64,000 nt of DNA from a virus (IMGVR_UViG_3300028603_000001:116801-180800), one strand, 5' to 3'. Positions 2,028 to 63,074 are shown, numbered from the stretch's first letter. Made by a program: numbers and translations. Notes: generated by a model not told the origin, from the sequence alone.

Positions 2028-2087
2028 ATTAGCTAAATTATACACATCAGGTTATTATAATATGTACCTGTAAACTATTTTATAATT

Positions 2088-2156
2088 AAAAGCCACACCA
2101 CAGGCAACTGTGGGCCGGAAAGCCAGAGGGACTCTCAGTAGTCAGCCGTGCTGCAG
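2088..2156 (+). promoter_or_regulatory. c-di-GMP-I (GEMM) riboswitch
   Basis: GCCACA-CCACAG GCAA CTGTGG-GCCGGAAAGCC-AGAGGGACT...AGTCAGCC..GCTGCA. GNRA-capped P1 and the GEMM junction are present, with a compensatory swap (usual GGC.../...CGCAAAG reads GCC.../...CGGAAAG). Abuts SD GAAAGAGG. Confidence 0.75.
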
Positions 2157-2168
2157 AAAGAGGTAATT

Positions 2169-2837: not shown

Positions 2838-3416
2838 ATGAGTAAAATCTTATCAACAATTCTTGCTGTATTTATTTTTATATCTTTTCTCTCAAGTACG
2901 GACATATACGCTTATTGGAATAATTTAGAAATAACATATACAGTTACCGCACAAATAGGTGTATGGGATTACAAAATAATCCCTGACGAATGGAATCTTA
3001 ATATCTGGGAAGATGAAGATAATTTAAATCAGACAATTCCTGAAAACCAGTTATTCTCCTATAATGGTTTATTATATGTTGTAAGAGAGGGTGAGGTATA
3101 TAACCCACATTGGCATGGATTACCAGGTGAACCAAATACACAATGGGCTTATGTATCCCTTGAATTAGAATGGAGACCAAATATGAATTATCGAACATTA
3201 TCAGTTGTTGTCAGAGAAGGAAGATATTTTATAGCTAATCCAGCTTATAACGATAATTGGTTTGTTGGAGACCCATTAAATTCAGCGAATAAAGCATGGT
3301 CAGAATGGAGAGAAATAGAACAACTTCCAGAATCATATTTTGGCTTCTTATTAGATTATCCAATGGTAAAAGATTATCGCGCTAATATAGCTGATGTTAT
3401 CTTTATAACTAATTAA
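2838..3416 (+). CDS. Secreted protein, SipW-class signal peptide, CBM5/12-like aromatic repeats
   Basis: Signal ends IYAYWN; FSYNGLLY and WRPNMNY..SVVVREGRYF resemble carbohydrate-binding module repeats. Confidence 0.6.
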   Translation: MSKILSTILAVFIFISFLSSTDIYAYWNNLEITYTVTAQIGVWDYKIIPDEWNLNIWEDEDNLNQTIPENQLFSYNGLLYVVREGEVYNPHWHGLPGEPNTQWAYVSLELEWRPNMNYRTLSVVVREGRYFIANPAYNDNWFVGDPLNSANKAWSEWREIEQLPESYFGFLLDYPMVKDYRANIADVIFITN

Positions 3417-3456: not shown

Positions 3457-3521
3457 AATTTAATTAATTGTATATTATTATGAATGAATAAATCATAAAA
3501 TATAAATTTTTGGAGGTTAAA

Positions 3522-5819
3522 ATGAGAGTATTATTATTAATGAGAGGTGCTCCTGGTTGTGGTAAAACGACATGGATTAAAAACCATAATTTAGAAGATT
3601 ATACGTTATCACCAGATGAATTAAGAATTAAATGTAGTTCTCTAGAATTACAACCAACAGGTGAATTAAAAGTTTCACAAAATCAAGAAAATGAAAGTGC
3701 TGTTTGGAGTATTTTATTTAAACTTCTAGAACATAGAATGTCTCGTGGAGAGTTTACTGTTATAGACGCCACATGTTCTAAAACGAAAGATATTAAACAA
3801 TATAAAGAATTAGCTGATCAATATAGATATAGAATGTATATAGTTGATTTCACAAAAGTATCTTTAGAAACATGCCTAAAACAAAATAAAATGAGACCAG
3901 AACATAAATGGGTTCCAGAGAGAGCTATTGAAAATATCTATGCTAGATTTGCAACACAACAAATTCCCAGTGGTGTAACCATTATTCAACCAGATGATTT
4001 TGATGCAGTATTAGAAAAACCATTTGATGTTTCTGAATATAAAAGAATAGTATTTATTGGAGATATTCATGGATGTTATGATACACTAATGCAATATCCA
4101 GATTTTAAAAATGGTTTAAGAGATGATACAGAATATATTTTCTTAGGAGATTATATTGATAGAGGCAATCAAAATGCAGAAGTGTTGCATTGGTTATTCT
4201 CTATTATGAATAAACCAAATGTATGTTTATTAGAAGGAAATCATGAGAAGTGGATCAGGGATTATGGAAATAGTGTTCCTGCTAAATCAAGGGAGTTTGA
4301 ACATAAAACAAAACAGCAATTAATGAGCGGTGGTTTTGATGAAAAAATGGCAAGGATGTTATACAGGAAAGTAAGACAATTCTCTCATATTACATGGAAT
4401 GGAATTGAAATTTTAGCTTGCCACGCAGGAATCCCACATTTACAACATAATCTATTGTATGTTCCATCTATTGATTTTATTCAAGGTGTTGGAAAATATG
4501 CTGATTATTTAGCAGTTGCTGAAACATGGATGGGCAAAACAAACTTAAATCAATATCTAATTCATGGTCATAGAAATGTTGAAGGTGACGAAACACAAAT
4601 TGCCGATAGAGTATTCAATTTAGAAGGTAGAGTTGAATTTGGAGGTAAGTTAAGAATTGTTGAATTATCAATGGAATATTTAATGCCTGAATATGGTTAT
4701 ACTGCTGATGGAGGAAGAATCCCAATAGGTGTTATCACAACTCCAAGCTGGAATGTTGTTGAGTTAGATGATTGCCAACCAATTACAAAAGAGTTAAATA
4801 CAGAGGAACGAAAAGTTGAAACAGTAGCAGATGCAATTACATATTTACAAAATAATAAATATGTTCAAGAAAAAGCACTAGGCGATGGAATATCTTCATT
4901 TAATTTTACTAGAGAAGCTTTTTTTAAAGGTAACTGGAATAGACAGACTGTTCTAGCTAGAGGTTTATTTATAGACACGAAGAATAAAAAAATTATGGCT
5001 AGATCATATAAAAAGTTCTTTAATATTAATGAAGTTAGAGAAACTGAATTAGTATCACTAAGAGAAAAATTGCAATTTCCTGTAACTGCATACGTTAAAG
5101 AAAATGGATTTTTAGCTATTGTTTCTTATGATTATATTAACGATGATTTATTTATAGCTTCTAAATCAACCAATAAAGGTCCTTATGTGGAGTATATTAA
5201 AAAAGCTATTGAACCTTATCGAGAAAGGTTATTAGAATACTTTAGAGAATTATATAAGAGAGCTAACGACATTAACGGTCAAATAGCTACATTTGTATTT
5301 GAATGTATAGATGTTGAAAATGACCCACATATAATCAAGTACAATGAAAGTAAATTAATTCTATTAGATGTTATATTAAATAGCTTAGATTATAAAGCAC
5401 TTAATTACAAAGAATTAAACCTTGTTGCAAAATTAATACCAGATTGTCCTGTAAAAGAAAAAGCTTTTGAAATAAAAGACTGGGATGCGTTTAGAGACCT
5501 TTATAATGAAATTCAATCAGAAGAGTATCAATATAATGGAAAATATATTGAAGGATTTGTATTTGTTGACGAAGCTGGTTTTATGACTAAGTGTAAAACA
5601 GGTTATTATAATCAATGGAAGAAATTAAGGGGAATTACAGATCAAACTTTAAGACGTGGATATATCACTAAAACTGGTATGCTAACAACTTCTTTAGAAA
5701 ATATGTATTATGGATTTTTAAAAGACTTATATAAAAATGATTATAATAAAGAAACAAAAATTTATCCATATAAAACAGATATTATATCATTAAGAGAAAA
5801 GTTCTTAAAGGAGAATTAA
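3522..5819 (+). CDS. Trifunctional RNA repair enzyme: polynucleotide kinase, metallophosphoesterase, RNA ligase
   Basis: P-loop GAPGCGKT; GDIHG, GDYIDRG, GNHE; ligase KKFFN, KENG, EGFV. GGAGG SD before ATG 3522. Confidence 0.9.
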   Translation: MRVLLLMRGAPGCGKTTWIKNHNLEDYTLSPDELRIKCSSLELQPTGELKVSQNQENESAVWSILFKLLEHRMSRGEFTVIDATCSKTKDIKQYKELADQYRYRMYIVDFTKVSLETCLKQNKMRPEHKWVPERAIENIYARFATQQIPSGVTIIQPDDFDAVLEKPFDVSEYKRIVFIGDIHGCYDTLMQYPDFKNGLRDDTEYIFLGDYIDRGNQNAEVLHWLFSIMNKPNVCLLEGNHEKWIRDYGNSVPAKSREFEHKTKQQLMSGGFDEKMARMLYRKVRQFSHITWNGIEILACHAGIPHLQHNLLYVPSIDFIQGVGKYADYLAVAETWMGKTNLNQYLIHGHRNVEGDETQIADRVFNLEGRVEFGGKLRIVELSMEYLMPEYGYTADGGRIPIGVITTPSWNVVELDDCQPITKELNTEERKVETVADAITYLQNNKYVQEKALGDGISSFNFTREAFFKGNWNRQTVLARGLFIDTKNKKIMARSYKKFFNINEVRETELVSLREKLQFPVTAYVKENGFLAIVSYDYINDDLFIASKSTNKGPYVEYIKKAIEPYRERLLEYFRELYKRANDINGQIATFVFECIDVENDPHIIKYNESKLILLDVILNSLDYKALNYKELNLVAKLIPDCPVKEKAFEIKDWDAFRDLYNEIQSEEYQYNGKYIEGFVFVDEAGFMTKCKTGYYNQWKKLRGITDQTLRRGYITKTGMLTTSLENMYYGFLKDLYKNDYNKETKIYPYKTDIISLREKFLKEN

Positions 5820-45697: not shown

Positions 45698-46071
45698 AAT
45701 ATATTATCTCCTTTTTATATATTTTTTGTAAGTTCAATTATCAATTAATTTAGCAGTTGTAAAACATTTTCATATCACTATTTTCTTTAAATTAATTCAT
45801 CTCTATATAGATAAGGGCTTTTATCAAGGTAAGCCCTTATAACCTTTAACACCTTTATATTATATAATAAACTAGACTTAAAAATCAACAAAGCTCAAAA
45901 GTAAAATTTCACCGCTCTTAACTTCTATTTTAAAATCTATCTTCCTGTGTATAAAACAAAAAAACTAACAGGAGAGATTAAATTTGAATAGTAGAATCGT
46001 AATTCTAGCTAAATATAATCTTCATCATCTGTTAGTTTTATATTCTTATTATTTTTAATTTTTAATAAACC

Positions 46072-46134
46072 AAGGCGCAACTATGGATAATAACTTCTGT
46101 GGCGTCATCGTTGTTTATTAGCTGTAAGCGCCTT
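46072..46134 (-). ncRNA. ACAGCU-stem RNA element 3 (Y-RNA-like)
   Basis: AAGGCGC-TTACAGCT...GCGCCTTG. Confidence 0.6.
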
Positions 46135-46265: not shown

Positions 46266-47846
46266 TTAACCTAAAACTACGCTATCGTATCTATCTGCAT
46301 AAACAACTTCTAGCATAAATTCATAAGGAGTATGTTTCTTTCCATCTATAAGTGTTTTAAATATACTTGTTGCTTGACCACTAACCATTCTTACATTAGG
46401 AACATGTTTAGTTGTATGATAAGTATCTTGTCTAGCATCAACATTCCAAAATACGATTTCAGGTAAATCATAACCATATCGATTATATCTATCTTTCATC
46501 TTATCGTAGAAGGTCATATTGGTAGCGTCCCTGCGTTGGTAGATATAGGTTATTCCTACCATACATCCATTATCAACAACACATTGGTCAAATTCCATAT
46601 CAGTTATAATTATTAACTGTTTAGGCATATCTTCTTGTGTTAAGTTATTATCAACACCTGTTTTTAATATTAAATCAAAAGCAGCTTCTAGATTTGTATT
46701 ATCCACAATTTCTGGAACAACATTTAATTTATCAGCAAGCGTCATGTTATCCTTTAAACTAATCCAACTAGGTTTGCTAGCAAATGTCATAAACTTGTTA
46801 TGGAATGGTCCTGTATTTCTTTCTGCAAAATATATTCCTAAACCAACTGATGTAGCCATTGGACGACCCATCATTGAACCAGAAGTATCGGCAATAACAA
46901 TTGTGTTACATTCAACTCCTTGAATCCAATCTTTTAATCCATCCCACATAGCTTCTAACTCAGGTTTAAGGGTTCTAATATGCAGCACAGATCTTGATAT
47001 ATTCTGTGATAAATATTTTTCAATTATCTCATATGGATATAAATTTTTTGTATTAATTTTTGCTTCTTTTTCAACAACAGTTCCATCATCTTTAACAACA
47101 GTTATTTTCTTACCGTTTTTAAGAGCTTCTAAATATTCTTTAAATCTTTCTTCTTGATGTTTATAGAACGCTTTATTATATTTCTTCATAGCGCCACCAG
47201 GAACTGTATTGAAGTCTACTTTTTCCCATTCATTTTCAGACAGTCTCTTCTCTAATACATCAATATATTTTCTTAAACTAGCTAAAGTTTTTCTATATTC
47301 TTTTTCAGACATTTTAAAAAACTTAGCTGTTAATTTTCCTAATTTAACGCTTTCTTTGCTTGAAGTGTTAACTGATTTTAACCACTTTCCAAGTAAGCTA
47401 ACAGATTTACCTTCTTGCATATTAATTACGTCTTTATCAAATTGTTCTTTCATAAAAGCAAAAGCTTCTTTTTCCGCTGGTGTTCCAGCTAATGTATATA
47501 AATCATCAAAGCGTCCATATTTAGCGATATTTGGAATATTAGCAACAATATCTTTTGTTCTATTATTAGCTAACCAATTTAAACCAACTCTAAATACTCT
47601 ACGTTCACCCAAACCTTCTCCAATATCTCTCGCATAGAATAATATTTTCATAGCTGTTAGGGGTTGCTCGATATATGCTTTCATAAATTTAGTCTCAATA
47701 TCTGCATCTGGTCTTCTTCTTAAAGCCCCGATTGTAGCAAATAAATCTAAATTGGCGTCAAATGTTGTATTTAACGCATCAAGACCGTTTTCTGTTAATT
47801 TCCAAGCTACTTCTTTTTCAATAGCTTCTACAAATTTGTTTTCCAT
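46266..47846 (-). CDS. DUF2828 family protein (TROVE/Ro60-like helical domain plus vWA)
   Basis: TENG, FYARDI..GLGERRVF, YGRFDDL, SLLGKWL, LYPYEI; MIDAS IADTSGSM, ITDMEFD, IVFWNV. Confidence 0.85.
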   Translation of the reverse strand: MENKFVEAIEKEVAWKLTENGLDALNTTFDANLDLFATIGALRRRPDADIETKFMKAYIEQPLTAMKILFYARDIGEGLGERRVFRVGLNWLANNRTKDIVANIPNIAKYGRFDDLYTLAGTPAEKEAFAFMKEQFDKDVINMQEGKSVSLLGKWLKSVNTSSKESVKLGKLTAKFFKMSEKEYRKTLASLRKYIDVLEKRLSENEWEKVDFNTVPGGAMKKYNKAFYKHQEERFKEYLEALKNGKKITVVKDDGTVVEKEAKINTKNLYPYEIIEKYLSQNISRSVLHIRTLKPELEAMWDGLKDWIQGVECNTIVIADTSGSMMGRPMATSVGLGIYFAERNTGPFHNKFMTFASKPSWISLKDNMTLADKLNVVPEIVDNTNLEAAFDLILKTGVDNNLTQEDMPKQLIIITDMEFDQCVVDNGCMVGITYIYQRRDATNMTFYDKMKDRYNRYGYDLPEIVFWNVDARQDTYHTTKHVPNVRMVSGQATSIFKTLIDGKKHTPYEFMLEVVYADRYDSVVLG

Positions 47847-47926
47847 TTTTATATTTTCCTTTCATGACATATTTTTCTAAGTGTGTGTGTTTTCATAATT
47901 AAAAAGAGATAAAAAAAATAAATATC

Positions 47927-48041
47927 AAGACACTTTATACTACCTTACCAGTTAGGTGATAATTGCAATCGCACAATTAATTGGATTCGAACCAACATAA
48001 GTCTCATTTTCAGTGAGAGGATATTTAGCTGTATGTGTCTT
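47927..48041 (-). ncRNA. Y-RNA-like element 1 enclosing a circularly permuted tRNA (anticodon GAA)
   Basis: AAGACAC-ATACAGCT...[TCTCA CTGAAAA TGAGA][GTTGG TTCGAAT CCAAT][TAATTGT/GCAATTA][ACCT AACTGGTA AGGT]...GTGTCTTG. Confidence 0.8.
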
Positions 48042-48076
48042 TATGTTATTTATCTCTTTAATTATTTAAATATTGC

Positions 48077-48137
48077 AAGGCGCGGTATGTTAGGATTTAT
48101 CAGATCGGTTACATATAACATTAGCTGTATGCGCCTT
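48077..48137 (-). ncRNA. ACAGCU-stem RNA element 2 (Y-RNA-like)
   Basis: AAGGCGC-ATACAGCT-AATGTTA...TAACAT-ACC-GCGCCTTG. Confidence 0.65.
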
Positions 48138-48236
48138 TTTCTCTATTATTTGATTCGTTAATCAATAAAAGCTGTTAATGTCATTTTGAATTACGTTTTA
48201 TTATACAATTTATTTTTTAGATTTTTATTGCTACAT

Positions 48237-62910: not shown

Positions 62911-62984
62911 AGGGGCAACCAGGACTCGAACCTAGGATCTACGGATTAGCGGTCCGCTACTCTAACCAATTGAGTTACTGCCCC
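62911..62984 (-). tRNA. Atypical tRNA, anticodon GCT (Ser), short variable loop, C33, no encoded CCA
   Basis: GGGGCAG/TTGCCCC; GCGGA-CCGCTAA-TCCGT; GGTTCGAGTCC. Confidence 0.7.
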
Positions 62985-63006
62985 ATTATACTATATGTTA
63001 TAAAAG

Positions 63007-63074
63007 CGGAGATGAGGGATTCGAACCCTCTCAGGCCGCTAAGCCCTTTCCCACGTCGTCTAGAACAACTCTCC
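63007..63074 (-). pseudogene. Truncated tRNA-Ser-like remnant
   Basis: GGAGAGTTG...GAGGGTTCGAATCCCTC-ATCTCCG with a variable-arm-like hairpin; D and anticodon arms missing. Confidence 0.5.

What the first reader, a model, noticed from the sequence alone, without database searches (positions are those of the whole stretch)
47927..48041. Complete circularly permuted tRNA(GAA) embedded inside the Y-like stem
5'->3' on the minus strand the order is: anticodon arm TCTCA-CTGAAAA-TGAGA (48018-48002), variable CTTAT, T arm GTTGG-TTCGAAT-CCAAT, acceptor 3' strand TAATTGT, linker GCGATT, acceptor 5' strand GCAATTA, TC, D arm ACCT-AACTGGTA-AGGT. U8/A14, G18G19, A15-U48 and the T loop are all kept, with the break at position 26/27. 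YrlA RNAs have permuted T/acceptor/D modules, but to my knowledge they lack a free anticodon arm. This RNA could be a decoy for anticodon nucleases or tRNA-modifying toxins, or a precursor that the phage RNA ligase could join into a tRNA-Phe.
Basis: seen in the sequence. Interest (0 to 1): 0.88.

Follow-up and report, generated by a model that had tools for sequence, protein, structure and literature searches.

The report
Permuted tRNA mimic in phage Y-RNA
A 114-base phage RNA beside a Ro60-like protein gene folds as a complete but rearranged tRNA, anticodon arm included, held in a conserved handle; it is most likely the tRNA look-alike cargo of a Y-RNA-type particle, not a working tRNA gene.

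Summary
On the minus strand at 48039-47926 the order is: anticodon arm, variable loop, T arm, acceptor stem closed by a loop, U8-C9, D arm. All of it sits inside a 5-bp clamp followed by single-stranded CAGCUAA. Re-permuted, ARAGORN calls it tRNA-Phe(GAA).

The element lies in the leader of a 526-aa DUF2828 protein whose predicted fold best matches Ro60. The same clamp-CAGCWAA handle precedes or follows DUF2828 genes in every relative examined, with interchangeable cargo.

I parsed 47 non-redundant RNAs with this permuted layout:
- The hairpin 5' of the T arm is always present where there is room for it.
- It is a canonical anticodon arm in 13 of 34, against about 1 expected by chance. It is not canonical in the closest relative.
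- The Levitt pair 15:48 covaries.
- N73-CCA survives in 10 closing loops.

This is a YrlA-type tRNA mimic with a different handle and protein partner. It is a new variant of a known kind. A tRNA-Phe precursor is unlikely. A bait, tether or decoy role in tRNA-damage conflicts is plausible but untested.

Earlier notes of this scan report the same handle family in at least 29 other genomes.

The parts
48040..48059 (-). 5' strand of the long outer extension of the stem (AAAGAGAUAAAUAACAUAAA); specific to this lineage
   Evidence: Pairs with 47903-47925 in the MFE fold. Present almost unchanged in L007, absent in more distant relatives.
48035..48039 (-). Handle: 5' strand of the 5-bp clamp helix (GACAC)
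   Evidence: Pairs with 47929-47933. In the Infernal alignment of 33 distinct relatives, the clamp is 99.4% paired and all 5 pairs show changes on both sides.
48025..48034 (-). Handle: 3-nt spacer AUA plus conserved single-stranded CAGCUAA, the presumed Ro-like protein binding site
   Evidence: CAGC-W-A is invariant in all parsed relatives whatever the cargo. Three further copies lie around the same gene in the window.
48019..48024 (-). Linker AUAUCC between the handle and the anticodon arm
   Evidence: Read from sequence. Length varies among relatives.
48002..48018 (-). Anticodon-arm mimic UCUCA-CUGAAAA-UGAGA (5 bp, 7-nt loop, U33, GAA, A37, A38)
   Evidence: Chance 0.17%. Canonical in 13 of 34 relatives against 1.1 expected. 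The helix is 76.7% paired with compensatory changes at all 5 pairs.
47997..48001 (-). Variable loop CUUAU (positions 44-48; U48 pairs with A15)
   Evidence: Levitt pair 15:48 covaries across the family: A:U in 18 and G:C in 12 of 47.
47980..47996 (-). T arm GUUGG-UUCGAAU-CCAAU
   Evidence: Rfam tRNA model alignment. T stem 99.4% paired in relatives.
47960..47979 (-). Acceptor stem closed by a loop: 3' strand UAAUUGU, loop GCGAUU, 5' strand GCAAUUA (7 bp; G1:U72 wobble; U at -1; no CCA)
   Evidence: The closed acceptor is predicted by MFE in 41 of 43 relatives. 7/7 pairs in 35 of 47.
47941..47959 (-). U8-C9, D arm ACCU-AACUGGUA-AGGU, and A26
   Evidence: D stem 97.7% paired in relatives. Position 26 is a purine in 38 of 41.
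47934..47940 (-). A-rich 3' linker GUAUAAA back to the clamp
   Evidence: Linkers in relatives are 3-18 nt and 50% A. GUAU can pair with AUAC of the handle here and in L007 only.
47926..47933 (-). Handle: 3' strand of the clamp (GUGUC) plus conserved UUG
   Evidence: 3' tail YUG/UAG in most relatives.
47903..47925 (-). 3' strand of the long outer stem extension, U-rich
   Evidence: MFE fold. No terminator by the consensus scan.
46266..47846 (-). Partner gene: 526-aa DUF2828 + DUF7788 protein with a Ro60-like fold
   Evidence: Pfam. PHROG 850 'RNA-binding protein'. AlphaFold2 model pLDDT 90.8; top PDB matches are Ro60 1yvr, phage phiLo Ro60 9kop, 2i91 and 2nvo.
48076..48135 (-). Sibling handle RNA just upstream (GGCGC-AUA-CAGCUAA ... 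GCGCC-UUG); cargo contains a mini hairpin GAU-CUGAUAA-AUC
47863..48182 (-). Outer handle (GACAU-UAA-CAGCUUU ... AUGUC-AUG) enclosing both inner RNAs and ending next to the ribosome-binding site of the gene
   Evidence: the same nesting is seen in L007 and L011-L017.
46071..46132 (-). Fourth handle RNA downstream of the gene (GGCGC-UUA-CAGCUAA ... GCGCC-UUG)

Best explanation
The element is the cargo domain of a phage Y-RNA-like small RNA that works with the adjacent Ro60-like (DUF2828) protein.

The RNA has two modules:
- A handle: a 5-bp clamp helix, a 3-nt spacer, single-stranded CAGCUAA, and a 3' UUG. All RNAs around DUF2828 genes share it, and it is inferred to be the protein-binding site.
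- A cargo: here a complete tRNA cloverleaf in permuted order (AC arm, variable loop, T arm, acceptor closed by a 6-nt loop, U8-C9, D arm), with the tRNA tertiary-pair nucleotides intact. It should fold into an L shape with a free anticodon arm.

The layout and the N73-CCA relics in relatives' closing loops suggest descent from two tandem tRNA genes: from the AC arm of the first to the D arm of the second.

By analogy with M. smegmatis YrlA, the 7-bp closed acceptor (U-1/G+1) is probably cut by RNase P. That would leave two halves held together by the acceptor stem, the clamp and the protein.

The RNA is not a decoding tRNA. I infer that it acts as a tRNA-shaped bait or adaptor. It would present a tRNA look-alike on the Ro-like ring so that a tRNA-recognising factor (a processing, modification or repair enzyme, or a nuclease) is recruited or occupied during infection.

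Shown: the anatomy, family membership, covariation, gene linkage and protein fold. Inferred: protein binding to the handle, RNase P cleavage, and the adaptor function.
For: Anatomy and chance.

The handle is shared:
- It occurs around every DUF2828 gene examined, with varied cargo: 19 metagenomic loci, 5 GenBank phage loci and a mycobacteriophage.
- An RNA-only pattern scan of IMG/VR returned 118 loci. Of 29 with this permuted layout, 11 carry a DUF2828 homologue within the stored flank.
- 3 of 5 further contigs, including both complete genomes, carry DUF2828 elsewhere.

Structure in 33 distinct relatives:
- 93.5% of cells are paired, against 67% in shuffles and 33-44% when the partners are slid.
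- Covariation score 0.689 against 0.212 (0 of 500 shuffles reach it).
- Clamp, T stem and D stem are 98-99% paired; the AC stem is 76.7% paired, with compensatory changes at all five pairs.

Other family features:
- Levitt 15:48 covaries: A:U in 18, G:C in 12.
- Canonical AC arm in 13 of 34 against 1.1 expected.
- N73-CCA right after the 7-nt acceptor 3' strand in 10 of 47 against 0.6 expected.

Protein: Ro60-like fold.

Precedent: YrlA has the same module order. M. smegmatis YrlA is cut by RNase P and receives CCA in vivo, and both halves stay bound to Rsr (PMC4201824).

Context:
- The phage encodes a kinase-phosphatase-Rnl1 fusion of the tRNA-repair type.
- A Ro60-like phage protein (Bas63 gp130) counters the Ppl defence system (PMC11482910).
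Against: - No expression, processing or binding data exist for this RNA.
- The Rfam YrlA model does not match it, and the published Ro-binding motif GNCGAA is absent.
- The AC arm is the least conserved helix. It is non-canonical in the closest relative (L007: 4 bp with an 8-nt loop) and in about 60% of relatives, so a function that depends on an exact anticodon loop is not general.
- The RNA lies in the 5' leader of the DUF2828 mRNA. A purely cis-regulatory role is not excluded.
- The pair counts come from an alignment fitted to the model, which favours the structure.
Confidence: 0.6

Rival explanations
1. Decoy for tRNA-targeting defences. The RNP displays an anticodon stem-loop copy (here Phe-type CUGAAAA) that soaks up or mis-triggers a host anticodon nuclease or tRNA-modifying toxin, protecting real tRNAs.
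For: - Canonical anticodon arms with many different 'anticodons' recur in the family: GAA, GAU, UCU, CAU, GCU, UCC and others.
- Some handle RNAs carry only an anticodon stem-loop, e.g. mycobacteriophage Moostard UUUCA-CUGCUAA-UGAAA.
- The sibling RNA in this window holds GAU-CUGAUAA-AUC.
- The phage carries a tRNA-repair type kinase-phosphatase-Rnl1 enzyme.
- A Ro60-like phage protein counters a defence system (PMC11482910).
Against: - The loop is not kept in the nearest relative, and about 60% of same-layout RNAs lack a canonical loop.
- A decoy must be abundant, and abundance is unknown.
- The one defence linked to a Ro-like phage protein (Ppl) was proposed by its authors to degrade phage and host DNA.
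Confidence: 0.2
2. Nuclease-resistant scaffold or cis-regulatory leader. The tRNA fold only stabilises the RNA (as Chen et al. suggested for YrlA), or it is part of an autoregulatory 5' leader in which the protein binds the handles and controls its own translation.
For: - The RNA is nested inside an outer handle whose 3' strand abuts the ribosome-binding site.
- The stability idea is discussed in PMC4201824.
- Cargo is interchangeable and sometimes has no tRNA features (L011-L017).
Against: - Handle RNAs also occur downstream of the gene and far from it in complete genomes. Their role therefore cannot be leader control alone.
- The tertiary-pair nucleotides, 15:48 covariation and anticodon-arm geometry are kept beyond what mere stability would need.
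Confidence: 0.12
3. Genuine permuted tRNA-Phe gene. The transcript is cut at 26/27 and in the acceptor loop, the ends are joined by the phage RNA ligase, CCA is added, and a decoding tRNA-Phe results.
For: - The re-permuted sequence is called tRNA-Phe(gaa).
- The phage has no ordinary tRNA-Phe among its 12 tRNAs.
- It encodes a kinase-phosphatase-Rnl1 enzyme.
- A 7-bp acceptor with U-1/G+1 suits RNase P.
Against: - The ARAGORN call is not specific for the AC arm.
- The nearest relative has an 8-nt loop and an A-G mismatch in the D stem.
- No CCA is encoded and position 73 is G, while 10 of the phage's 12 tRNAs encode CCA.
- The conserved handle would have to be removed precisely, but no bulge-helix-bulge or other excision motif is evident.
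- The same layout occurs with cargo that cannot decode.
Confidence: 0.03
4. Decaying relic of two tandem tRNA genes with no function of its own, sitting by chance inside a handle RNA.
For: - The covariance model built here also picks up pairs of adjacent ordinary tRNAs as partial matches (model positions 22-95).
- tRNA arrays neighbour many of these loci.
Against: - The same permuted layout inside the same handle recurs in dozens of unrelated contigs, with compensatory changes in every helix.
- The window's copy has no mismatches in any helix.
Confidence: 0.05

Closest known systems
YrlA Y RNAs of bacteria and mycobacteriophages (Rfam RF02553; Chen et al. 2014, PMC4201824; Wang et al. 2018, bioRxiv 10.1101/312249)
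   Same: - A terminal stem encloses a tRNA-like domain in the order (V stem-loop)-T arm-closed acceptor stem-D arm.
- tRNA tertiary nucleotides are kept and 15:48 covaries.
- It is encoded beside a Ro60-type ring protein, often with a second sibling RNA.
- A 7-bp acceptor version (M. smegmatis) is cut by RNase P.
   Different: - The protein partner is DUF2828, not a Pfam TROVE protein; it is Ro60-like only at the fold level.
- The handle is clamp + CAGCWAA instead of GNCGAA.
- The Rfam YrlA model does not match.
- In the solved Salmonella YrlA, the strands that enter and leave the tRNA-like domain pair to form the anticodon-stem equivalent. Here those strands are unpaired linkers. The hairpin 5' of the T arm instead has anticodon-arm geometry followed by a class-I type variable loop.
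Thermus phage phiLo Ro60 with Yrl1/Yrl2 (PMC12135203; PDB 9KOP, 9L5Y)
   Same: A phage-encoded Ro60-fold protein with Y-like RNAs encoded just upstream of its gene. 9kop is the second-best structural match of the window's protein.
   Different: The phiLo RNAs were picked by a CGAA motif and a stem-bulge-stem shape. No tRNA-like cargo or CAGCWAA handle is described.
Circularly permuted tRNA genes of Cyanidioschyzon merolae and some archaea
   Same: The 3' half of the tRNA is encoded upstream of the 5' half, with the acceptor strands joined by a short linker.
   Different: Those are real tRNAs matured through a circular intermediate by the splicing endonuclease and ligase at a bulge-helix-bulge motif. 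Here no such motif is seen, the break is flanked by a conserved protein-binding handle, and relatives lose the decoding features.
Dictyostelid Class I RNAs (Kjellin et al. 2021, PMC7919456)
   Same: A short terminal stem joins the 5' and 3' ends. A conserved, unstructured 11-nt motif lies next to the 5' strand, followed by a variable remainder. The conserved positions reported (T3, C6, C9, A10, A11) fit xxTxxCAGCAA.
   Different: Eukaryotic, about 60 nt, with no tRNA-like cargo reported. The partner known so far is an RRM protein.

Membership tests
tRNA (Rfam RF00005; functional tRNA gene) | Contiguous cloverleaf reaching the Rfam gathering score, or called by a tRNA finder in native order | tested here: not met
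   28.7 bits against a gathering score of 29, using a false acceptor pairing. ARAGORN makes no call in native order.
tRNA (Rfam RF00005; functional tRNA gene) | All four arms and tertiary-pair nucleotides present once the order is restored | tested here: met
   The re-permuted sequence is called tRNA-Phe(gaa). U8/A14, A15:U48, G18G19 and the T loop are read from sequence. The call is weakly specific.
tRNA (Rfam RF00005; functional tRNA gene) | Free acceptor end with CCA, encoded or added | tested here: not met
   The acceptor is closed by GCGAUU and no CCA is encoded, whereas 10 of the phage's 12 tRNAs encode CCA. Addition after processing cannot be tested here.
tRNA (Rfam RF00005; functional tRNA gene) | Anticodon loop conserved among close relatives | tested here: not met
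   L007 (92% identical protein) has a 4-bp stem with the 8-nt loop AUUGAAAC.
YrlA (Rfam RF02553) | Match to the covariance model at the gathering score (69 bits) | tested here: not met
   No match on the element at E <= 10. The best hit in the genome is 20.7 bits, elsewhere. cmscan of the region also gave none.
YrlA (Rfam RF02553) | Module order (V)-T arm-closed acceptor-D arm inside a stem formed by the RNA's ends | tested here: met
   order as described in PMC4201824.
YrlA (Rfam RF02553) | GNCGAAN0-1G Ro-binding motif near the 5' end | tested here: not met
   Absent. CAGCUAA occupies that place.
YrlA (Rfam RF02553) | Encoded next to a Ro60/Rsr orthologue | tested here: inconclusive
   The neighbour has a Ro60-like predicted fold but matches Pfam DUF2828/DUF7788, not TROVE. 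Sequence searches of the PDB do not reach Ro60.
YrlA (Rfam RF02553) | Bound by the Ro protein; modified by TruB/DusA; cut by RNase P when the acceptor has 7 bp | not testable with these tools
   Needs immunoprecipitation, modification mapping and an RNase P assay.
Clamp-CAGCWAA handle RNAs linked to DUF2828 (not in Rfam; seen repeatedly by this scan) | Covarying 5-bp terminal clamp, 2-4-nt spacer, invariant CAGC-W-A, and a 3' tail ending in G | tested here: met
   Window: GACAC-AUA-CAGCUAA ... GUGUC-UUG. Clamp 99.4% paired with compensatory changes at all 5 pairs. Motif table.
Clamp-CAGCWAA handle RNAs linked to DUF2828 (not in Rfam; seen repeatedly by this scan) | Linkage to a DUF2828 gene | tested here: met
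   The element ends 80 nt upstream of the start codon. The same linkage is seen in relatives.
Permuted tRNA genes matured via a circular intermediate | Bulge-helix-bulge motif at the junction, and a joined mature tRNA | not tested
   No such motif is evident on reading the flanks. No RNA data were available.

The most novel reading that the evidence does not exclude
After RNase P opens the acceptor loop and CCA is added, the two halves form a split but otherwise complete tRNA-Phe look-alike, anchored on the Ro-like ring through the handle. Across phages, the 'anticodons' of such cargo would track the tRNA species attacked by host defences. The particle would then be a programmable tRNA decoy or sensor that neutralises anticodon nucleases or tRNA-directed toxins: a new class of RNA-based anti-defence.
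Probability: 0.15. Interest if true: 0.85.

Novelty: new variant of a known kind. Interest (0 to 1): 0.62.

Why it matters
Ro60 and Y RNAs are conserved from bacteria to humans, yet what the tRNA-like domain of bacterial Y RNAs does is still open.

This element belongs to a large phage family whose protein occurs in about 700 GenBank phage records. In that family a Ro60-fold protein pairs with RNAs that share one handle and carry interchangeable tRNA-derived cargo. The cargo includes complete permuted tRNAs with real anticodon-arm geometry.

The system is tractable. One could vary the cargo, keep the handle, and ask which tRNA-binding factor is captured. It also links Ro-type particles to phage-host conflicts over tRNA integrity.

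For annotation, the element shows that tRNA-like sequences near phage tRNA arrays can be Y-RNA cargo rather than tRNA genes or pseudogenes.

Tried and rejected
- DNA-level searches of GenBank phages with the locus found nothing.
- A single-protein scan of IMG/VR found no relative. Relatives came instead from the protein-cluster search and contig look-ups.
- Exhaustive re-permutation plus ARAGORN was dropped as a test of the anticodon arm. Shuffled arms passed in 51% of sets. It was replaced by a direct geometry test with shuffles.
- I considered the Rfam-style acceptor pairing ACAGCUA:UAAUUGU (6 of 7 pairs in the window). It is a coincidence: the mode is 2 of 7 in relatives, against 7 of 7 for the closed acceptor.
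- I considered the YrlA-style anticodon stem made by the entering and leaving strands (AUAC/GUAU next to the D stem). It is possible here and in L007 only. Other relatives have A-rich unpaired linkers.
- The MAFFT alignment of 27 relatives misaligned the acceptor strands. The covariance model was therefore built from 8 sequences without acceptor pairs.
- Sequence and profile searches of the PDB did not reach Ro60. Only the fold search did.
- I tried to fetch M. smegmatis YrlA through a published primer, to see whether its 'V' hairpin is anticodon-like. The attempt failed: no match, then four unrelated matches. The primer itself (CACTTCTAATGGAATGGTCGC) contains CTTCTAA followed by ATGGTC, which hints at such an arm but proves nothing.
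- The supplements of Chen 2014 and the 2020 review are not held.
- The ORF at 835-1836 that weakly matched RNA_ligase is an ATP-dependent DNA ligase. No RtcB was found.

Full report
WHAT IS THERE

On the minus strand the window reads GACAC-AUA-CAGCUAA-AUAUCC, then:
- UCUCA-CUGAAAA-UGAGA
- CUUAU
- GUUGG-UUCGAAU-CCAAU
- UAAUUGU-GCGAUU-GCAAUUA
- UC
- ACCU-AACUGGUA-AGGU
- A-GUAUAAA-GUGUC-UUG

This spans 48039-47926 and is wrapped in a further, lineage-specific AU-rich stem (48059-47903).

The unconstrained fold of 171 nt gives the anticodon (AC), T and acceptor hairpins and three pairs of the D stem inside the outer stem. ARAGORN and Rfam at gathering score see no tRNA here. With a permissive threshold, the Rfam tRNA model aligns the AC arm, variable loop and T arm in native order at 28.7 bits, just under its cut-off.

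Re-permuted in a script from the window's own letters, the sequence is called tRNA-Phe(gaa).

IS IT MORE THAN CHANCE?

The ARAGORN call alone is weak evidence for the anticodon arm. With the real T, D and acceptor arms kept, and every junction offset tried, shuffled versions of the 5' region still produced a call in 491 of 960 sets, and in 5 of 20 for the window.

A direct test is sharper. The test asks for a perfect 5-bp stem, a 7-nt loop with U at position 2 and a purine at position 6, and a 4-6-nt linker to the T stem. This arises in 0.17% of shuffles of the window's 28-nt region.

CONTEXT

The element ends 80 nt upstream of a 526-aa ORF (46266-47846, minus strand).
- The ORF matches Pfam DUF2828 and DUF7788 and PHROG 850 'RNA-binding protein'.
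- An AlphaFold2 model built on 46 homologues (pLDDT 90.8, pTM 0.91) has as its best PDB matches Xenopus Ro60 (1yvr, E 1e-7, TM 0.56), the Ro60 of Thermus phage phiLo (9kop), 2i91 and Deinococcus Rsr (2nvo).
- Sequence and profile searches of the PDB do not reach Ro60.

The partner is therefore Ro60-like by fold, not a TROVE-family member by sequence.

The window belongs to a complete 180.8-kb phage record with terminal repeats.

THE FAMILY

tblastn finds the protein in 699 GenBank phage records, including Escherichia, Mycobacterium, Salmonella, Vibrio, Listeria, Staphylococcus, Enterococcus and Bacillus phages. The protein-cluster search finds thousands of homologues.

I fetched 19 metagenomic loci of close homologues, 5 GenBank loci and mycobacteriophage Moostard. 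In 23 of these 25, one to three RNAs with the same handle flank the gene, sometimes nested. One more has only a truncated copy abutting the start codon, and one fecal contig (L001) shows none upstream; its downstream side was not read. The handle is a 5-bp clamp, 2-4 nt, CAGC-W-A, and after the 3' strand of the clamp a tail ending in G.

The window has four such RNAs:
- the finding itself;
- a sibling at 48135-48076;
- an outer one (48182...47863) that encloses both and ends at the ribosome-binding site;
- one downstream of the gene (46132-46071).

Cargo between the handle strands varies widely:
- no tRNA features (L011-L017);
- the window's layout (L007, L020, L021, L023, L012, L005 and others);
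- closed acceptor-D-AC-V-T (L016, L018);
- D-AC-V-T without an acceptor (L020, L021 downstream copies);
- an anticodon stem-loop alone (Moostard);
- a tRNA-like RNA with the CAGCAA motif in place of the anticodon arm (L002).

From all loci I parsed 47 non-redundant RNAs with the window's layout.
- 11 of 29 pattern-found loci with this layout carry a DUF2828 homologue within the stored flank.
- 3 of 5 others, including both complete genomes, carry it elsewhere on the contig.

IS THE HAIRPIN AN ANTICODON ARM?

[quoted passage not shown] In the solved Salmonella domain, the anticodon-stem equivalent is made by the strands that enter and leave (10.1101/312249).

Here the entering and leaving strands are the conserved single-stranded CAGCWAA plus a few nucleotides, and an A-rich linker of 3-18 nt. 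They pair next to the D stem only in the window and L007.

The hairpin is followed by a 4-5-nt linker, which in many relatives reads UGGUC or UGGUU like a class-I variable loop. Its last base covaries with D-loop position 15: A:U in 18 and G:C in 12 of 47.

Canonical geometry counts:
- At least 4 of 5 pairs, 7-nt loop, U33, R37: 13 of 34 RNAs that have room for the arm, against 1.14 expected (maximum 6 in 2000 shuffles).
- All five pairs: 7 against 0.12.

The 'anticodons' differ widely.

Independent MFE folds predict a hairpin there in 32 RNAs (34 of the 43 folded have room for one). A 7-nt loop is the commonest size, but the range is 3-8 nt.

A covariance model built from 8 members recovered 34 full-length relatives at E < 2e-6. 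On that alignment:
- The AC helix is 76.7% paired, with changes on both sides at all five pairs.
- The clamp, T stem and D stem are 98-99% paired.
- The whole structure scores 93.5% paired, against 67% in shuffles and 33-44% when partners are slid.

That alignment is fitted to the model, so it leans towards the structure.

My reading is that the hairpin is homologous to a tRNA anticodon arm. It is under weaker constraint than the rest, kept canonical in a large minority, and perfect in the window.

ORIGIN

In 10 of 47 RNAs, the closing loop begins with N73-CCA directly after the 7-nt acceptor 3' strand, against 0.6 expected. Loop lengths resemble spacers in phage tRNA arrays. The model also picks up adjacent ordinary tRNAs as partial matches.

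This fits descent from two tandem tRNA genes: the segment from the AC arm of the first to the D arm of the second, captured between handle strands. That is an inference.

WHAT IT PROBABLY DOES

The handle is the only part common to all RNAs linked to the gene, so it is the likely protein-binding site. The cargo is a full tRNA look-alike.

M. smegmatis YrlA has a 7-bp acceptor. It is cut by RNase P and receives CCA in vivo, and both halves remain bound to Rsr. The window's RNA also has a 7-bp acceptor, with U at -1 and G at +1, so the same cut is a reasonable prediction.

The phage encodes a kinase-phosphatase-Rnl1 fusion at 3510-5819. This is the enzyme type that phages use to mend cleaved tRNAs (known from T4 Pnkp and Rnl1; my own knowledge).

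A Ro60-like protein of phage Bas63 counters the Ppl defence, and its authors guessed that neighbouring 'tRNAs' might be Y RNAs. I did not test whether that protein is DUF2828.

I therefore favour a tRNA-shaped bait or adaptor on a Ro-like ring. A decoy for tRNA-directed nucleases or toxins is the main rival, or a special case of the same idea.

WHY NOT A tRNA-Phe GENE?

The phage lacks an ordinary tRNA-Phe, which is suggestive. Against the idea:
- The closest relative has an 8-nt loop and a weakened D stem.
- No CCA is encoded, although 10 of the phage's 12 real tRNAs encode it.
- Position 73 is G.
- The conserved handle would need precise removal, and no known bacterial pathway does that.
- The same layout carries cargo that cannot decode.

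KNOWN OR NEW?

tRNA-like Y RNAs next to Ro60 genes, including in phages, are published. The Rfam YrlA model does not match this RNA, and the GNCGAA motif is replaced by CAGCWAA.

I found no paper that describes the DUF2828-CAGCWAA pairing or a complete permuted tRNA as Y-RNA cargo. The library is incomplete, so this is not proof of absence.

Earlier notes of this scan describe the same handle family in at least 29 other genomes and the four handles of this window. I checked the handles, the RF02553 comparison and, in part, the Class I RNA lead.

VERDICT

The element is a new variant of the YrlA kind, and its function is still to be shown.

Noticed in passing
window 3510-5819 (+): A 769-aa ORF fuses a polynucleotide-kinase-type P-loop domain (AAA_33), a calcineurin-like phosphoesterase and a T4 Rnl1-type RNA ligase. 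This is a single-chain healing-and-sealing enzyme of the tRNA-repair kind. The ORF at 835-1836 is an ATP-dependent DNA ligase.
   Followed up: partly
window 2082-2158 (+): A c-di-GMP-I riboswitch aptamer (45.8 bits, above the gathering score) in a phage genome. Its 3' end overlaps the start of a 196-aa ORF with no family match.
   Followed up: no
window 48094-48106 (-), inside the sibling handle RNA 48135-48076: The cargo holds a mini hairpin GAU-CUGAUAA-AUC with an anticodon-loop-like 7-nt loop. The 92%-identity relative L007 has CUGGCAA at the same place, so only the 'anticodon' letters differ.
   Followed up: no
window 47863-48182 (-): An outer handle (GACAU-UAA-CAGCUUU ... AUGUC-AUG) encloses both inner RNAs. 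Its 3' strand lies 2 nt from the AAAGGAAA ribosome-binding site of the DUF2828 gene, which suggests autoregulation. The same nesting is seen in L007 and L011-L017.
   Followed up: no
L016:3060-3170, L018:1123-1235, L020:3601-3697, L021:3587-3677, L144:2866-2935, L002:1131-1255: Other cargo topologies in the same handle: closed acceptor-D-AC-V-T (break at 65/66); D-AC-V-T with the clamp in place of the acceptor; an anticodon stem-loop alone; and a tRNA-like RNA whose anticodon arm is replaced by an insert bearing CAGCAA.
   Followed up: partly
closing loops of 10 of the 47 relatives with the window's layout, e.g. L065:3985-4112 and L109:2614-2710: N73-CCA is kept directly after the 7-nt acceptor 3' strand inside the closing loop (10 observed, 0.6 expected). 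It is either a relic of tRNA genes with encoded CCA or a processing signal.
   Followed up: partly
window 62929-63054 (-): The only place in the phage genome where the Rfam YrlA model gives a match below E = 1 (20.7 bits, far under the cut-off) is the tRNA-Ser gene plus the neighbouring tRNA remnant. Adjacent tRNAs can therefore imitate the permuted layout.
   Followed up: no
handle motif, all loci: The short terminal stem plus xxTxxCAGCAA resembles the conserved 11-nt motif and stem of dictyostelid Class I RNAs. The reported conserved positions T3, C6, C9, A10 and A11 fit (PMC7919456). Pfam's description of DUF2828 includes eukaryotes (my own knowledge).
   Followed up: partly
L004:1085-1237 and 3029-3294; L005:1100-1290; L018:1-330: DUF2828 genes and their handle RNAs often sit inside or beside arrays of ordinary phage tRNA genes. 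In Enterococcus phage EF1, the gene is flanked by annotated tRNA-Arg and tRNA-Ile upstream and tRNA-Phe and tRNA-Cys downstream.
   Followed up: no
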